A stretch of 26,747 nt of DNA from a virus (taxonomy: Duplodnaviria > Heunggongvirae > Uroviricota > Caudoviricetes). Positions 1,159-6,399 of the stretch are shown here, piece after piece. Made by a program: the position numbers and the translations under genes. Each line of letters begins with the position of its first letter. The stretch's first letter is position 1. The notes below the pieces were generated by a model. The model was not told where the DNA came from, did no database searches, and saw only the letters and a program-made list of their open reading frames with translations. The stretch is taken from the IMG/VR virus record IMGVR_UViG_2778261499_000013, positions 1 through 26,747 of that record. The stretch is one strand, 5' to 3'.

Positions 1159-1236
1159 TCCACCTTAACCATTATCGAAGAGCACAAAGCCTTGCAATCA
1201 AGTACAAGGATTTGCAATTCACTTCATTTACAAAGT
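1159..1236. other. Candidate attP-containing gap between convergent int and tailspike genes
   Basis: Only 78 bp separate the int stop (1156-1158) from the tailspike stop (1237-1239); in P22-like phages attP lies between the tailspike region and int. No tRNA-like 3' end seen. Confidence 0.3.
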
Positions 1237-3399
1237 TTATTCACATAAAGATATTGATGCCAATATAAACATTGCAAGTTCGTCATATCTTATACCATAA
1301 CTTTCACAAAAGATATCTATATTTCCAGTCATGTGTTCGCGATGCGTTTTATCGTGACACCAAAACCCATACTTACTAGGATCAAGTCCGTGCTTCCTCA
1401 TTATATTACCAACAGTTTGAGCTCCAACACCAAAATGCCACCTAGCACCATCAAATCCCTTTACCTCAACAGAATCCAGCATCTTAAACTTTTTAATATT
1501 ATCTTTTATTTCTAGTGCAGCTTTTTTTTCAGCAACATCAATGTCTGTTAGTTTTGTTTTCAACATTTCATTTGATGTATTTATCATTCCTGTAGTTGCA
1601 TATATTGTTTTATATCTCGCATCCGGCCCACCAATATCAAAAGCATTATCAATTTGTGGTGTAATTTTCCCATAATGAAAGAATAATTCATGCTCACTAT
1701 TACCTATAGCTACAGTATTCTGAGCGGCAATTACCCCACTACCGATAGCTACTGCGTTACTTCCGGTTGATTTTGTATTATCTCCGAGAAGGACGCAGTT
1801 TGTCACATCTGTAGCCTGCTCTGACACGTTACCAGAATTAGAACCTAAAAATACATTGAAAGATCCAGCCGTTACTTTAAACCCTGCATCGAATCCAATA
1901 CCAACATTATCAGATCCTGATGCAGAATATAGCGCCTCGTAACCTATAGCTGTATTATTATTACCTAACGCGTTGAAACCCGACTTAGCCCCTACCGCAA
2001 CACAATACTGGATAGACACCCCCGTAGGAAAACTGGAATTACCGCCACGTAACGCATATTCACCAAAAGCGGTGTTCTCATTACCAGCACTGTTGTGATA
2101 CAAGGCCTGCACACCTGCCGCAGTATTCCCAAATCCTGTTTTGTTATACCTGTTAGTATCATTACCAATACCAGTATTACCGTAGCCTGTTGTGTTTGCA
2201 CATAACGCAAAAACCCCAACCGCTACGTTATCAGAACCAGATACGTTAGCTCTTAGAGAATCAGCACCGTATGCACAATTGTTTTTACCAGTCTTATTGT
2301 TTTCCATAGACTGAATCCCAGACGCGGTATTTGCGTATCCTGTAGTGTTTGAGTGCAAACTCTTCCACCCATATGCGGTATTGTTAGCTCCTACGTTTCC
2401 ACCGCCTAATGAGTCTTTTCCAGCGGAAGTATTAGTATCATTGTTTCCGCTAACATTAAAAATAACGCTTCCTGATTTAACGATGCTGCCACTTCCTGTG
2501 TTTATTACTGATGGATTGGAAGGAATGAAAAATGACCATGAGTCATTTACTGTATGTCCAGTGGTTGAAGAAAAGTTTATCTTCAATCCACTTACGAAAA
2601 AATCCACCCCACCTGCAAGTATTACGATTGGTTGCTGAGATACACTGTCATCGATTGGGTTGTACACGTCTATCGTGTCACGCCATGTAACTCCATTATC
2701 TGTACTGAATTCAAGCTTATCAGGATTTGAAGCTTCTTTTATTCTTACAATTGCATTTAGATCTTGCTGTCCATTGTATATTCCTGACACGGTCATGTCG
2801 TTAACACCAGAGCCAGAATATTTAGTCTGGTAATTAATCACTACTATGCCAGGCCCCCAATATCTCTTATTTAAGTTAATATTATTTACATTATAAATAC
2901 CATCAGGAATGTATATGTCATTGAATTCTGATATCTCTGCATCGTTAAATGCCTGCGTATTGTTTGTTAATCCATCACCAATAGCACCAAAAAAAGTAAT
3001 AGGCTTCGAAACACCACCTATCAATCCTGCTCCACCAGATGATTCAAGCTCCAACCTTAATTGATCCGGCTCATACTTCAACACATTAGGAAAATAGAAC
3101 TGCTGTGCACCATATACATCATAAACAGCCATAGAATGGCCTTGCACAGTTACGAATTTGGCAATCTGTCCGTTATATACAGGGTAACCAGCGGCGTTAA
3201 TGATGATTGGTTGCGAAACAGGAACGTGAGAACCGTCTTCGTTCTCTACATAAACCTGAATCTGGTTTTCAGGATTTACCGGGTCAGTGTCAATTTTACC
3301 GATATAAATTTTTCCATTAGCTACGGCTTTAAAAGAACGAGCCATAGTGAAGAGTTGCGAAGGCATACTCACTACAACATTGGCTGTAATGTCTGTCAT
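1237..3399 (-). CDS. Tailspike/tail fiber: P22 gp9-like head-binding N-domain, Gly/Asn/Thr-rich repeat domain, C-terminal chaperone-like domain
   Basis: 720-aa ORF; N-terminus [46 protein letters not shown] closely matches my recollection of the P22 tailspike head-binding domain; central GNTxxG/NTAxG repeats; C-terminal ~100 aa ([26 protein letters not shown]...) resembles intramolecular chaperone domains of endosialidase-type fibers. Confidence 0.85.
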
Positions 3400-3457
3400 T
3401 TAATTTGCTCCAGATACAAGGAATCGCCGCAGCATGGCTACGGTGAATTTTGGGCAT

Positions 3458-3481
3458 AAAAAAACCCAGCCGAAGCTGGGT
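3458..3481 (-). terminator. Intrinsic terminator between antirepressor and tailspike
   Basis: Minus-strand RNA ACCCAGC-UUCG-GCUGGGU followed by U7; perfect 7-bp stem with UUCG tetraloop. Confidence 0.7.
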
Positions 3482-3499
3482 CGTTGCGTTGGTTATCTG

Positions 3500-4967: not shown

Positions 4968-5225
4968 ATGGCTAGAGATGATCCGCACTTTAACTTCCGT
5001 ATGCCTTTGGAAGTAAGAGAAAAATTGAAATTAAGAGCCGAGGCTAACGGAAGGTCAATGAACTCTGAGTTATTACAAATCGTTCAGGATGCTCTCTCAA
5101 AGCCATCACCGATTGCAGGCTATCGCAACGAAGCTGAACGCTTGGCTGATGAACATTCGGATATCGTAAAAAATATGGTATTCGAAACTTTAAAAAAACT
5201 TTATGGAAAAGAAAAGAATGAGTAA
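4968..5225 (+). CDS. mnt: Mnt maintenance repressor (ribbon-helix-helix)
   Basis: 85-aa ORF MARDDPHFNFRMPLEVREKLKLRAEANGRSMNSELLQIVQDALSK... matches my recollection of P22 Mnt almost residue for residue. Confidence 0.92.
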   Translation: MARDDPHFNFRMPLEVREKLKLRAEANGRSMNSELLQIVQDALSKPSPIAGYRNEAERLADEHSDIVKNMVFETLKKLYGKEKNE

Positions 5226-5487
5226 TAAAGAGCTTGTTAAAAAATCAAATAACTGTGTCGATGCATATGCTGACTCATTTGGATACTCTTCGTTTGGTGA
5301 CGGTTCCCAGCGATTAGGTTCAATTTCTTTTTTTCATAATGTAACTGAATGGCCTGTTGATGAAAGCGGTGATGTTGAAAACATAAAGTACAATATTGCC
5401 ACCATTAGAATGCCTGAAGAATTGATGCTTAAATTGGCGGACTTCATTCGCGACCAACATTATAAGGCTAAAACAAACGAGTCGTAA
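5218..5487 (+). CDS. Hypothetical small protein with Arc/Mnt-like RMPEEL segment
   Basis: ORF overlapping the mnt 3' end (ATG at 5218 preferred over 5203 by purine-rich upstream context); C-terminal NIATIRMPEELMLKLADFIRDQ resembles the beta-strand and first helix of Arc/Mnt. Confidence 0.5.
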   Translation: MSNKELVKKSNNCVDAYADSFGYSSFGDGSQRLGSISFFHNVTEWPVDESGDVENIKYNIATIRMPEELMLKLADFIRDQHYKAKTNES

Positions 5488-5490
5488 TCA

Positions 5491-5940
5491 ATGATGAAAC
5501 ACGATTATTACGAAGCTCCAAATCTAACTGAAAAGCTTGAACAAGCGGAAAAATCATCATCTTTGTACACAAATCCAATTTCTCAGTCATCAGGAATGTC
5601 TGGCATGAATATGGGCATGCTACAATCAAGTGGTGGTGGAGCTGGGAGTAACAACATGCTTGAGGCTAGGGTTGCACGGTTAGAGGCAGATGTTGAAAAC
5701 ATTAAGACCAATCTATCTGAGGCAAGGTCTGACATCTCTCGTTTGCGTGATATCTCAGCTGATACATCCAGAGATGTTGCGGTGGTCCTGCAAAAAATAG
5801 TAGATGTAGACGAAAAATTATCAAAAAAACCGAGTAAGAGCGAAGTCCAGACATTGATATCTTCTGCAGTAAACAAGCAAATACTATGGACCATAGGGAC
5901 TGGATTTGCTCTTTTAGGGATAGCTAAATATATATTTTAG
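5491..5940 (+). CDS. Hypothetical tail-anchored coiled-coil membrane protein
   Basis: 149 aa; Ser/Gly/Met-rich low-complexity N-terminus, heptad-like central region (LEARVARLEADVENIKTNLSEARSDISRLRDI), single C-terminal hydrophobic helix ILWTIGTGFALLGIAKYIF; starts 3 nt after the previous stop. Confidence 0.6.
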   Translation: MMKHDYYEAPNLTEKLEQAEKSSSLYTNPISQSSGMSGMNMGMLQSSGGGAGSNNMLEARVARLEADVENIKTNLSEARSDISRLRDISADTSRDVAVVLQKIVDVDEKLSKKPSKSEVQTLISSAVNKQILWTIGTGFALLGIAKYIF

Positions 5941-6009
5941 CTCACCTCATCAGCTATCTTCTTGTTCCATTCACTCAGTGCCACTGCAAGGAAAACTAAG
6001 GAGGTTAGT

Positions 6010-6399
6010 GTGAAGCGATTTCTTGCTGGTATGTTTTTATTCATATCTTTTGGGGCTACAGCAGAATGCTGGGTTGTTGGAGATATGCGCGGAATAAGCT
6101 ATTCAGAACGAAATAATTTCCAACCGGAAGAAGATGGTTTTAGTGGAACATTTATCATTAAGACAAGCGGTGAAGATGCCAGCATCACATATTCTGGGAC
6201 GGATGCTGGCGGCATGGCTTACAAAGCATTGTCTAAAAACTCCATCATAGGAATCGGCGCGAATGGCGAAACTCAACGAGTTATCGACTCATGGGTAATA
6301 CATCCTAATGGAACAGTTTTAATGTCGAAAACCATTTCTGGTTATGGAAACATGGATTCAACCAAAGCTTTTGTTGGAAAAGTAAAAAGAAAATGTTAA
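6010..6399 (+). CDS. Hypothetical secreted (periplasmic) protein
   Basis: GTG start 5 nt after a strong Shine-Dalgarno TAAGGAGGT (5997-6005); predicted signal peptide KRFLAGMFLFISFGATA with AxA cleavage site; mature protein about 110 aa with Cys near both ends. The ORF-track ATG at 5962 lacks a Shine-Dalgarno. Confidence 0.6.
   Translation: MKRFLAGMFLFISFGATAECWVVGDMRGISYSERNNFQPEEDGFSGTFIIKTSGEDASITYSGTDAGGMAYKALSKNSIIGIGANGETQRVIDSWVIHPNGTVLMSKTISGYGNMDSTKAFVGKVKRKC

What the first reader, a model, noticed from the sequence alone, without database searches (positions are those of the whole stretch)
1237..3399. Chimeric tailspike: P22 head-binding domain fused to a repeat-rich fiber with a C-terminal chaperone-like domain
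The first ~115 aa are P22 gp9-like, but the body is a Gly/Asn/Thr-rich repeat domain followed by a C-terminal segment resembling self-cleaving intramolecular chaperone (peptidase S74-like) domains. This implies a host receptor specificity different from P22, Sf6 or HK620 and a mature protein shorter than the ORF. The central part is visibly AT-rich relative to the virion genes, consistent with horizontal acquisition.
Basis: partly seen in the sequence, partly recalled or inferred. Interest (0 to 1): 0.5.

Follow-up and report, generated by a model that had tools for sequence, protein, structure and literature searches.

The report
Mosaic P22-type tailspike with self-cleaving chaperone
This is the host-recognition protein of a P22-like prophage of chicken-pathogenic E. 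coli: a standard virion anchor joined to a borrowed, uncharacterised repeat-built binding domain and a self-removing folding domain, so it is a new example of a known modular design and not a new kind of system.

Summary
Window 1237-3399 (minus strand) is one intact 720-aa ORF.

- **aa 1-113:** P22 Head_binding domain (E=4e-66).
- **aa ~134-570:** a Gly/Asn/Ser/Thr-rich body. It has a short pectate-lyase-like cap, a ~100-aa Asp-box beta-sandwich and a beta-solenoid of 17-residue repeats (autocorrelation z=7.6).
- **aa 538-608:** an endosialidase-type stalk.
- **aa 609-720:** a Peptidase_S74 intramolecular chaperone. The Ser609/Lys614 dyad is conserved and aligns with the catalytic residues of K1F endoNF and T5 pb1.

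The window is 100% identical to the argW prophage of E. coli APEC O2-211, which carries a complete P22-like virion module.

The gene is a fine-scale mosaic. The anchor is P22/CUS-3-like. The body is 85% nt identical to lytic phages ST4 (G7C-like) and P817 (Nouzillyvirus), and 100% identical in blocks to a metagenomic siphovirus. Similarity to that contig ends at aa 614, just past the cleavage site.

The anchor-plus-chaperone architecture already exists in phage CUS-3. What is new is the binding domain, which one published survey left as an unassigned singleton type (X49). Its receptor and any enzymatic activity remain unknown. The AT-richness claim is only partly right. Verdict: a new member of a known kind, of modest interest.

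The parts
1237..3399 (-). Tailspike/fibre precursor ORF, 720 aa, 76.6 kDa (stop codon 1237-1239)
   Evidence: It is 100% identical to WP_050437765.1 'phage tailspike protein' of E. coli APEC O2-211.
3061..3399 (-). aa 1-113: P22-type head-binding (virion anchor) domain
   Evidence: PF09008, E=3.7e-66. Sf6 gp14 E=1e-63 and P22 gp9 head-binding chains E~1e-50. 109/113 identical to CUS-3.
3001..3060 (-). aa 114-133: linker ([17 protein letters not shown]...), the recombination junction between anchor and body
   Evidence: nt identity to P22-like tailspikes ends at aa ~112-123. Identity to ST4, P817 and L004 starts at aa 122. The GAGLIGG motif is shared with Tail_spike_N-anchored homologues.
2830..3000 (-). 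aa 134-190: short pectate-lyase-like beta-helix cap (FGAIGDG...)
   Evidence: PF12708 hits on the aligned stretch of homologues P0010, P0013 and P0015. Weak profile match to the start of the Sf6 beta-helix. It is found as a separate module in the representative search (query 16-72).
2476..2829 (-). aa 191-308: ~100-aa beta-sandwich with an Asp-box-like S-x-D-x-G-x-T-W (aa 232-239)
   Evidence: AF2 gives 8 strands at pLDDT ~80-92. S232, G236 and T238 are conserved. The domain occurs alone or in arrays of up to 12 copies in other proteins. No Pfam family covers it.
1789..2475 (-). aa 309-537: beta-solenoid of 17-residue repeats N-x-A-x-G-x-x-[AS]-L-x-x-N-x-x-G-x-x (exact register aa 340-458, degenerate after)
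1576..1788 (-). aa 538-608: endosialidase-type trimeric stalk preceding the cleavage site
   Evidence: PF12219 profile 91-160, E=3.9e-7. Aligns to the endoNF stalk (1v0e, 3gvj), phi92 4hiz and T5 pb1. YadA_head hits at this position in homologues.
1558..1575 (-). aa 609-614 SNEMLK: predicted autoproteolysis motif (Ser609 nucleophile and cleavage site, Lys614 base)
   Evidence: T608, S609 and K614 are invariant in 21 homologues. They align with the Ser(Ala)/Lys positions of 3gw6, 4uw8 and 7y5s.
1240..1575 (-). aa 609-720: C-terminal intramolecular chaperone domain (Peptidase S74), predicted to be released as 12.7 kDa, leaving a 64.0 kDa mature protein
   Evidence: PF13884 23.4 bits > 22. Profile E values of 1e-32 to 1e-43 to solved chaperone-bearing fibres. 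Foldseek to 3gw6, 4uw8, 3gud (TM 0.69-0.71) and MyRF ICA. Masses.
3463..3482 (-). Strong intrinsic-terminator-like hairpin between ant and the tailspike gene, followed by GGAG (3408-3411) and ATG
1190..1209 (-). Weak terminator-like hairpin in the 78-bp spacer between the tailspike stop and the convergent integrase stop

Best explanation
The ORF encodes the receptor-binding tail protein of a P22-like (CUS-3-type, argW-integrated) temperate podovirus.

**Shown**
- aa 1-113 are the conserved anchor that docks tailspike trimers onto the gp4/gp10 tail hub. The same prophage encodes a full P22-type virion module.
- The rest of the protein is a module imported by recombination at a conserved linker. 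Closely related copies sit on other anchors in G7C-like, Nouzillyvirus and other siphovirus genomes.

**Inferred**
- The polypeptide trimerises from the C-terminus. The S74 intramolecular chaperone (aa 609-720) nucleates folding of the adjacent stalk (aa 538-608) and the 17-residue-repeat solenoid.
- The chaperone then removes itself by Ser609/Lys614-catalysed cleavage. This leaves a 609-aa (64 kDa) mature protein, with six trimers per virion.
- The mature body (cap, Asp-box sandwich and solenoid) recognises a cell-surface glycan of avian E. coli and sets host range.

I lean (about 55:45) towards an adhesin-like binder without a classical depolymerase fold. No catalytic domain is detectable, and the solenoid's clearest sequence resemblance is to bacterial trimeric-autotransporter head repeats.
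For: - **Domains:**
- **Catalytic dyad and chaperone invariants** (T608, S609, K614, H655, G657, A660, Q661, G702).
- **Chaperone fold:**. Profile matches to solved chaperone-bearing fibres.
- **P22-type virion genes** (ejection proteins, needle, gp10- and gp4-like, coat, scaffold, portal).
- **Prophage context** (argW-intS-tailspike-ant-arc-mnt), identical in layout to CUS-3.
- **Mosaic origin:** 85% nt identity to ST4 and P817 over aa 122-568. 100% nt blocks to metagenome contig L004 at aa 202-382 and 482-614, ending just past the cleavage site. Homologues use Tail_spike_N, head-binding-like or no recognised anchor.
- **Solenoid and adhesin resemblance:**, plus YadA_head hits in homologues.
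- **No enzyme family found** in Pfam, NCBIfam or PDB sequence searches of the body.
Against: - Cleavage, trimerisation and virion incorporation are not shown.
- The S74 Pfam score is only just above threshold.
- The structure models are monomers of an obligate trimer, with mean pLDDT 65-69, so the solenoid geometry and its handedness are uncertain.
- Every characterised P22-like tailspike is an enzyme. Invariant polar residues (D414, Q431, R451) line up on successive coils and could be a catalytic site rather than a binding or packing patch.
- The receptor is unknown. The two lysogens carry different O-antigen clusters (O2/O50 and O119), and phage ST4 was propagated on O157.
Confidence: 0.75

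Rival explanations
1. The body is an enzymatically active depolymerase (glycosidase, lyase or esterase) of a so far undescribed fold. It cleaves O-antigen or capsule as P22, Sf6, HK620 and CUS-3 tailspikes do. The anchor and chaperone work as in the best explanation.
For: - All characterised P22-like tailspikes are enzymes (established knowledge).
- The body starts with a pectate-lyase-like cap.
- D414, Q431 and R451 are invariant and Y418 and Y434 nearly invariant, at the same positions of consecutive 17-residue coils.
- An Asp-box motif is typical of glycan-processing proteins.
- The same module replaces serogroup-specific tailspikes in Nouzilly- and Gamaleyaviruses.
Against: - No catalytic family was detected by Pfam, NCBIfam, PHROG annotation or PDB sequence searches.
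- Coils of 17 residues are too short for the classical three-sided right-handed beta-helix of depolymerases.
- The highest sequence identities among structural matches are to adhesin heads and an ice-binding protein.
Confidence: 0.4
2. The C-terminal domain is not removed. It stays on the mature protein as a distal knob or receptor-binding tip.
For: The S74 Pfam score is marginal (23.4 against 22). The domain is short (111 aa) compared with several homologues that carry an insertion.
Against: Ser609, Lys614 and the other family invariants are intact. The +1 Asn also occurs in endoNF. The fold matches the released chaperones 3gud and 3gw6. The natural recombination breakpoint just past the cleavage site suggests the domain is an exchangeable, disposable module.
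Confidence: 0.1
3. The gene is a decaying remnant of a cryptic prophage and makes no functional protein.
For: It occurs in only 2 of 5,426 complete E. coli genomes. The neighbouring prophage regions of those two genomes have diverged.
Against: The 720-aa ORF is uninterrupted, with an RBS. All family-invariant residues are kept. A complete virion module lies alongside. Blocks of 100% nt identity to a phage contig imply recent exchange among active phages. A 97%-identical cluster has 47 member sequences.
Confidence: 0.05

Closest known systems
Phage CUS-3 endosialidase tailspike (siaK1, ABQ88383.1)
   Same: - A P22-type head-binding anchor, 109/113 identical.
- The same prophage site and gene order (argW attL-int-tailspike-ant-mnt).
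- An endosialidase-type stalk plus a C-terminal S74 chaperone (28% identity over aa 492-683).

Sources.
   Different: CUS-3 carries the GH58 beta-propeller endosialidase and a neuO conversion gene. Here the centre is a cap + Asp-box sandwich + 17-residue solenoid, with no endosialidase catalytic-domain hit and no conversion gene in the 78-bp spacer.
Peptidase S74 intramolecular chaperone domains of K1F endoNF (3GW6), T5 pb1 (4UW8), GA-1 gp12 (3GUD) and Klebsiella phage Kp7 fibre (7Y5S)
   Same: C-terminal position after a trimeric stalk, the Ser...Lys (i, i+5) motif, the fold, and the conserved HFG..AQ and YG.RY motifs.
   Different: It is among the shorter examples (111 aa). Sequence identity is only about 25-27% to 3gw6, 4uw8 and 3gud in the structural alignments, and at most 52% to any sequenced phage. 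Cleavage has not been tested here.
Receptor-binding proteins of Escherichia phage P817 (UAV84693.1, Nouzillyvirus), phage ST4 (UUB18130.1, G7C-like) and metagenome protein P0004
   Same: The same receptor-binding body. It is 85% nt identical over aa 122-568 to P817 and ST4, and 95-100% aa identical over aa 201-609 to P0004.
   Different: They carry other virion anchors (Tail_spike_N and others) and another chaperone allele (about 50% identity after aa 609). P817's protein was left as singleton subtype X49 without a serogroup in PMC10408124.
Head repeats of trimeric autotransporter adhesins (YadA_head PF05658; UspA1, BpaC, EibD)
   Different: The period is 17 residues here, not 14. The window protein itself gives no YadA_head hit. 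It is a virion protein with a self-cleaving chaperone, not an autotransporter with a membrane anchor.
P22 gp9, Sf6 gp14 and HK620 gp9 tailspikes
   Same: The anchor domain (73% identity to P22 and 88% to Sf6) and the gene's position at the end of the late region.
   Different: Their bodies are long right-handed beta-helix glycosidases with their own C-terminal trimerisation domains and no S74 domain. Only a ~60-aa cap is weakly similar.

Membership tests
P22-like tailspike (Head_binding anchor) | N-terminal ~110-aa domain homologous to the P22 gp9 head-binding domain | tested here: met
   PF09008 aa 1-113, E=3.7e-66. P22, Sf6 and CUS-3 alignments.
P22-like tailspike (Head_binding anchor) | Encoded in a genome with the cognate P22-type tail hub (gp4, gp10 and gp26 homologues), downstream of the ejection-protein and immI genes | tested here: met
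   PHROG hits for Ad3 (gp4-like), Hc3 (gp10-like), tail needle and ejection proteins. ant, arc and mnt lie next to the gene.
P22-like tailspike (Head_binding anchor) | Right-handed parallel beta-helix glycosidase body | tested here: not met
   Only a ~60-aa cap resembles it. The body has 17-residue coils and no glycosidase family hit.
Peptidase S74 / C-terminal intramolecular chaperone | Profile match above the curated threshold at the C-terminus, after a trimeric stalk | tested here: met
   PF13884 23.4 bits against a cut-off of 22, aa 609-672, directly after the PF12219 stalk match at aa 538-608. Profile E values of 1e-32 to 1e-43 to solved examples.
Peptidase S74 / C-terminal intramolecular chaperone | Catalytic Ser at the cleavage site and Lys five residues downstream | tested here: met
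   S609 and K614 are invariant in 21 homologues and align with the corresponding positions of 3gw6, 4uw8 and 7y5s.
Peptidase S74 / C-terminal intramolecular chaperone | Chaperone fold | tested here: met
   The AF2 model has pLDDT 85-91 over aa 620-680. Foldseek to 3gw6, 4uw8 and 3gud (TM 0.69-0.71, probability 1.0).
Peptidase S74 / C-terminal intramolecular chaperone | Autoproteolytic release after trimer folding | not testable with these tools
   Needs protein expression and mass spectrometry.
Endosialidase (GH58) tailspike, as in CUS-3 and K1F | Beta-propeller catalytic domain and endosialidase N-terminal and beta-barrel domains | tested here: not met
   Only profile positions 91-160 of PF12219 (the stalk) match. 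No PF12217, PF12218 or PF12195 hit at E<=1.
YadA-like head repeat (trimeric autotransporter adhesins) | Pfam YadA_head repeat match | tested here: inconclusive
   No hit in the window protein at E<=1. Homologues hit at the aligned C-terminal coils, two of them above the cut-off (P0013 28.9 bits, P0015 29.2 bits).
YadA-like head repeat (trimeric autotransporter adhesins) | Left-handed beta-roll of ~14-residue coils | tested here: inconclusive
O-antigen-serogroup-specific RBP subtypes (PMC10408124) | The same RBD subtype is always associated with one host serogroup | tested here: inconclusive
   P817's RBP is the unassigned singleton X49. The two lysogens carry O2/O50 and O119 clusters but share identical Gnd and Ugd, so the O-antigen may have been replaced after lysogeny.

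The most novel reading that the evidence does not exclude
The six tail appendages of this P22-like podovirus would be non-enzymatic, adhesin-like fibres: a solenoid related to trimeric-autotransporter heads and giant-virus fibre repeats, plus an undescribed Asp-box sandwich. They would bind a receptor that is not serogroup-specific. In support, nearly the same domain sits in lysogens with O2/O50 and O119 clusters and in lytic phages grown on O157. That would mean a P22-type virion can reach the outer membrane without digesting the O-antigen layer.
Probability: 0.2. Interest if true: 0.55.

Novelty: new member of a known kind. Interest (0 to 1): 0.3.

Why it matters
- **Modular exchange.** This is a very clean natural example of receptor-binding protein exchange across four unrelated phage types. 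Breakpoints sit at the anchor linker and just past the chaperone cleavage site, which supports the idea that both are interchangeable cassettes useful for engineering host range.
- **The unassigned 'X49' type.** The finding links this binding-domain type to a temperate phage and to poultry-associated E. coli. That gives a route to finding its receptor.
- **Limits.** The architecture is already known from CUS-3, and the protein is already annotated as a tailspike in RefSeq, so it does not open a new question by itself.

Tried and rejected
- NCBIfam gave no hit.
- Tandem Repeats Finder found no DNA repeats, so the periodicity is only at protein level.
- phmmer of the repeat region alone against PDB sequences found nothing.
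- A word-index search with the anchor, meant to estimate how often Head_binding and S74 co-occur, returned only short partial fragments and was uninformative.
- The afdb50 fold library was unavailable.
- Receptor inference from host serogroup failed. The lysogens are O2/O50 and O119 but share flanking gnd and ugd. ST4's hosts are O157, O103 and O145, but ST4 has a second fibre. The published O2 subtype (phage 611R6) matches only our anchor.
- Names for the Asp-box sandwich domain were sought in Pfam and among cluster members. None were found.
- The PHROG label 'colanic acid degradation' (phrog_8280) was rejected as irrelevant because it matches only aa 1-132, the anchor.

Full report
**1. What is there**

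Window 1237-3399 on the minus strand is a single uninterrupted ORF of 720 aa. A GGAG sits 8 nt before the ATG. A strong terminator-like hairpin lies just upstream (3463-3482) and a weak one downstream.

The window is 100% identical to the chromosome of avian-pathogenic E. coli APEC O2-211. There the gene is already annotated 'phage tailspike protein' (WP_050437765.1). It lies in the order tRNA-Arg, intS, tailspike, antirepressor, arc, mnt, ejection proteins. That is the layout of the K1 prophage CUS-3.

The adjacent genes are a complete P22-type virion module: three ejection proteins, gp14-like, tail needle, gp10- and gp4-like connectors, coat, scaffold and portal.

**2. Domain anatomy**

- **Anchor, stalk and chaperone by Pfam.** Head_binding covers aa 1-113 (E=3.7e-66). 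The C-terminal stalk portion of End_tail_spike covers aa 538-608 (E=3.9e-7). Peptidase_S74 covers aa 609-672 (23.4 bits, cut-off 22).
- **Anchor identity.** It is 109/113 identical to CUS-3, 88% to Sf6 and 73% to P22.
- **Composition.** The body is rich in Gly, Asn, Ser and Thr.
- **Repeat.** It contains a true protein-level repeat. Autocorrelation over aa 330-570 peaks only at lags 17 and 34 (z=7.6 and 7.9 against shuffles). Seven units N-x-A-x-G-x-x-[AS]-L-x-x-N-x-x-G-x-x are in exact register from aa 340, followed by degenerate coils. There is no DNA-level tandem repeat.
- **Two further modules.** An exhaustive phmmer search with aa 119-340 shows that this stretch holds two separable modules:
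  - a ~60-aa pectate-lyase-like cap (aa 134-190);
  - a ~100-aa beta-sandwich (aa ~191-308) with an Asp-box-like S-x-D-x-G-x-T-W at aa 232-239.
- **The sandwich elsewhere.** The sandwich also occurs alone or in arrays of up to 12 copies in unnamed metagenome proteins. It has no Pfam family.

**3. Structure predictions**

Both AlphaFold2 models were monomers and of only moderate confidence (mean pLDDT 64.9 and 68.7). They predict the following:
- a well-ordered sandwich (pLDDT 80-92);
- a regular solenoid (70-80);
- a confident C-terminal domain (85-91).

Foldseek places the C-terminal domain with the intramolecular chaperones of K1F endoNF (3GW6), T5 pb1 (4UW8), GA-1 gp12 (3GUD, TM 0.69-0.71) and the MyRF ICA domain.

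BFVD hits include a 'FhaB-like adhesion protein' of Bodo saltans virus and S74-bearing proteins of phages and Tupanvirus. Homologues, but not the window protein itself, hit Pfam YadA_head at the last coils.

No catalytic family is detected anywhere in the body.

**4. The chaperone**

In an alignment of 21 homologues at 32-77% identity, these residues are invariant: T608, S609, K614, H655, G657, A660, Q661, G671, L672 and G702.

Pairwise HMMER alignments place Ser609 on the residue that is Ala in the non-cleaving mutant crystal chains of endoNF and T5 pb1, and Ser in the Kp7 fibre. They place Lys614 on their conserved Lys. That those two Ala residues are engineered S911A and S1264A mutations is from my own knowledge of those studies. 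The Asn at +1 also occurs in endoNF.

Cleavage after Ser609 would give a 64.0-kDa mature chain and a 12.7-kDa released fragment from a 76.6-kDa precursor. Cleavage itself is inferred, not shown.

**5. Origin: a fine-scale mosaic**

- **Anchor boundary.** Nucleotide identity to P22-like tailspikes (HK620, CUS-3, Sf6 and about 1,135 E. coli genomes) stops at aa ~112-123.
- **Body.** From aa 122 to 568 the gene is 85% identical to a gene of phage ST4 (G7C-like podovirus, at the gp63.1 position) and to the 'tail fibers protein' of P817 (Drexlerviridae, Nouzillyvirus, from poultry sewage).
- **Metagenomic siphovirus contig L004 (protein P0004, Tail_spike_N anchor).** Identity runs as follows:
  - aa 122-202: 63-77%;
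  - aa 202-382: 100%;
  - aa 382-482: about 80%;
  - aa 482-614: 100%;
  - beyond aa 614, just past the cleavage serine, the alignment ends.
- **Chaperone allele.** Its nearest relative is a different protein (P0007, 75%). No sequenced phage exceeds 52%.
- **Junctions.** The gene is assembled from at least five segments. The junctions fall at the conserved linker (LR..L....GAGLIGG), inside the body, and at the S74 motif. This fits the published picture of anchor/RBD swapping across these genera (PMC10408124). It is also a natural instance of chaperone exchange.
- **Distant relatives.** At 38% identity, some have the same whole architecture, including a weak head-binding-like N-terminus (P0012, P0014, P0016, P0017).
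- **Composition.** The whole gene is AT-rich (0.393 against 0.501 for the virion genes). The repeat centre is the least AT-rich segment.

**6. Distribution and receptor**

The body plus chaperone occurs in only 2 of 5,426 complete E. coli genomes, both from US chickens. In GPEC60-33-648 it is 99.7% identical, while the anchor and the neighbouring immI and ejection genes are more diverged.

P817's protein was left as an unassigned singleton subtype, 'X49', in the published serogroup survey. That survey's O2 subtype (phage 611R6) matches only our anchor.

The two lysogens carry different O-antigen clusters: O2/O50 wzx/wzy and O119. They share identical Gnd and Ugd proteins, and APEC O2-211 has IS remnants next to gnd. 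So O-antigen replacement after lysogeny is plausible, and the comparison does not decide the receptor. ST4 grows on O157, O103 and O145 but has a second fibre.

The receptor, and whether the protein cleaves it, stay open.

**7. Comparison with what is known, and verdict**

The design 'P22 anchor + foreign binding domain + endosialidase-type stalk + S74 chaperone' is that of the CUS-3 tailspike. CUS-3 has a GH58 endosialidase where this protein has the cap, sandwich and solenoid.

The solenoid-plus-S74 fibre module is itself very widespread. There were 3,229 hits at E<=1e-5, many of them 'tail fiber domain-containing proteins' of Bacteroidota, some with a type IX secretion signal.

I rate it a new member of a known kind and of modest interest.

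The part that could turn out unusual is a non-enzymatic, adhesin-like receptor binder on a P22-type virion. I put that at about 20%.

Noticed in passing
window 2476-2829 (-), aa ~191-308: A ~100-aa beta-sandwich with an Asp-box-like S-x-D-x-G-x-T-W motif behaves as an independent domain. It recurs singly or in arrays of up to 12 copies in unnamed metagenome proteins. It has no Pfam family and no source name.
   Followed up: partly
window 1558-1575 (-), and locus L004 6423-7901: Nucleotide identity to a metagenomic siphovirus tail-fibre gene is 100% up to aa 614 and then vanishes. The S74 chaperone was therefore swapped just past its own cleavage site. Inside the body, an ~80% patch (aa 382-482) sits between 100% blocks.
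   Followed up: yes
window 1159-1236: Only 78 bp separate the convergent stops of the integrase and tailspike genes. There is no surface-modification gene here (P22 gtrABC, Sf6 oac, CUS-3 neuO), so this prophage seems not to alter its own receptor from this locus.
   Followed up: partly
L007 36192-46961 (APEC O2-211) and L008/L009 (GPEC60-33-648): The two lysogens have O2/O50 and O119 O-antigen clusters but identical GndA and Ugd proteins. APEC O2-211 has ISAs1 fragments beside gnd and a fragmented acetyltransferase gene in the cluster, which hints at O-antigen replacement and perhaps an altered O2 unit.
   Followed up: partly
L005 1-5922 (GPEC60-33-648): In the second lysogen, intS is preceded by phage early genes (torI/xis-like, ead/Ea22-like, DUF550) and not by tRNA-Arg. 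This suggests tandem or rearranged prophages at this site.
   Followed up: no
proteins P0055, P0072, P0080, P0111, P0115: Bacteroidota homologues of the repeat + S74 part carry a type IX secretion sorting domain (Por_Secre_tail). In P0055 it lies after the S74 domain, which suggests cell-surface fibres that use the phage-type chaperone. Giant-virus 'adhesion' proteins share the solenoid.
   Followed up: no
window 5203-6399 (+): Three plus-strand ORFs (94, 149 and 145 aa) lie between the immI region and the ejection genes. They match only PHROGs of unknown function (4231, 3556, 2651). One has a C-terminal hydrophobic segment and one an N-terminal signal-like segment (read from the translations, not tested). 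The position is that of P22 sieA, so they may be lysogen-expressed exclusion genes.
   Followed up: partly
window 3463-3482 (-): A strong GC-rich hairpin plus T-run sits between ant and the tailspike start, so tailspike expression probably depends on antiterminated late transcription, as in P22.
   Followed up: no
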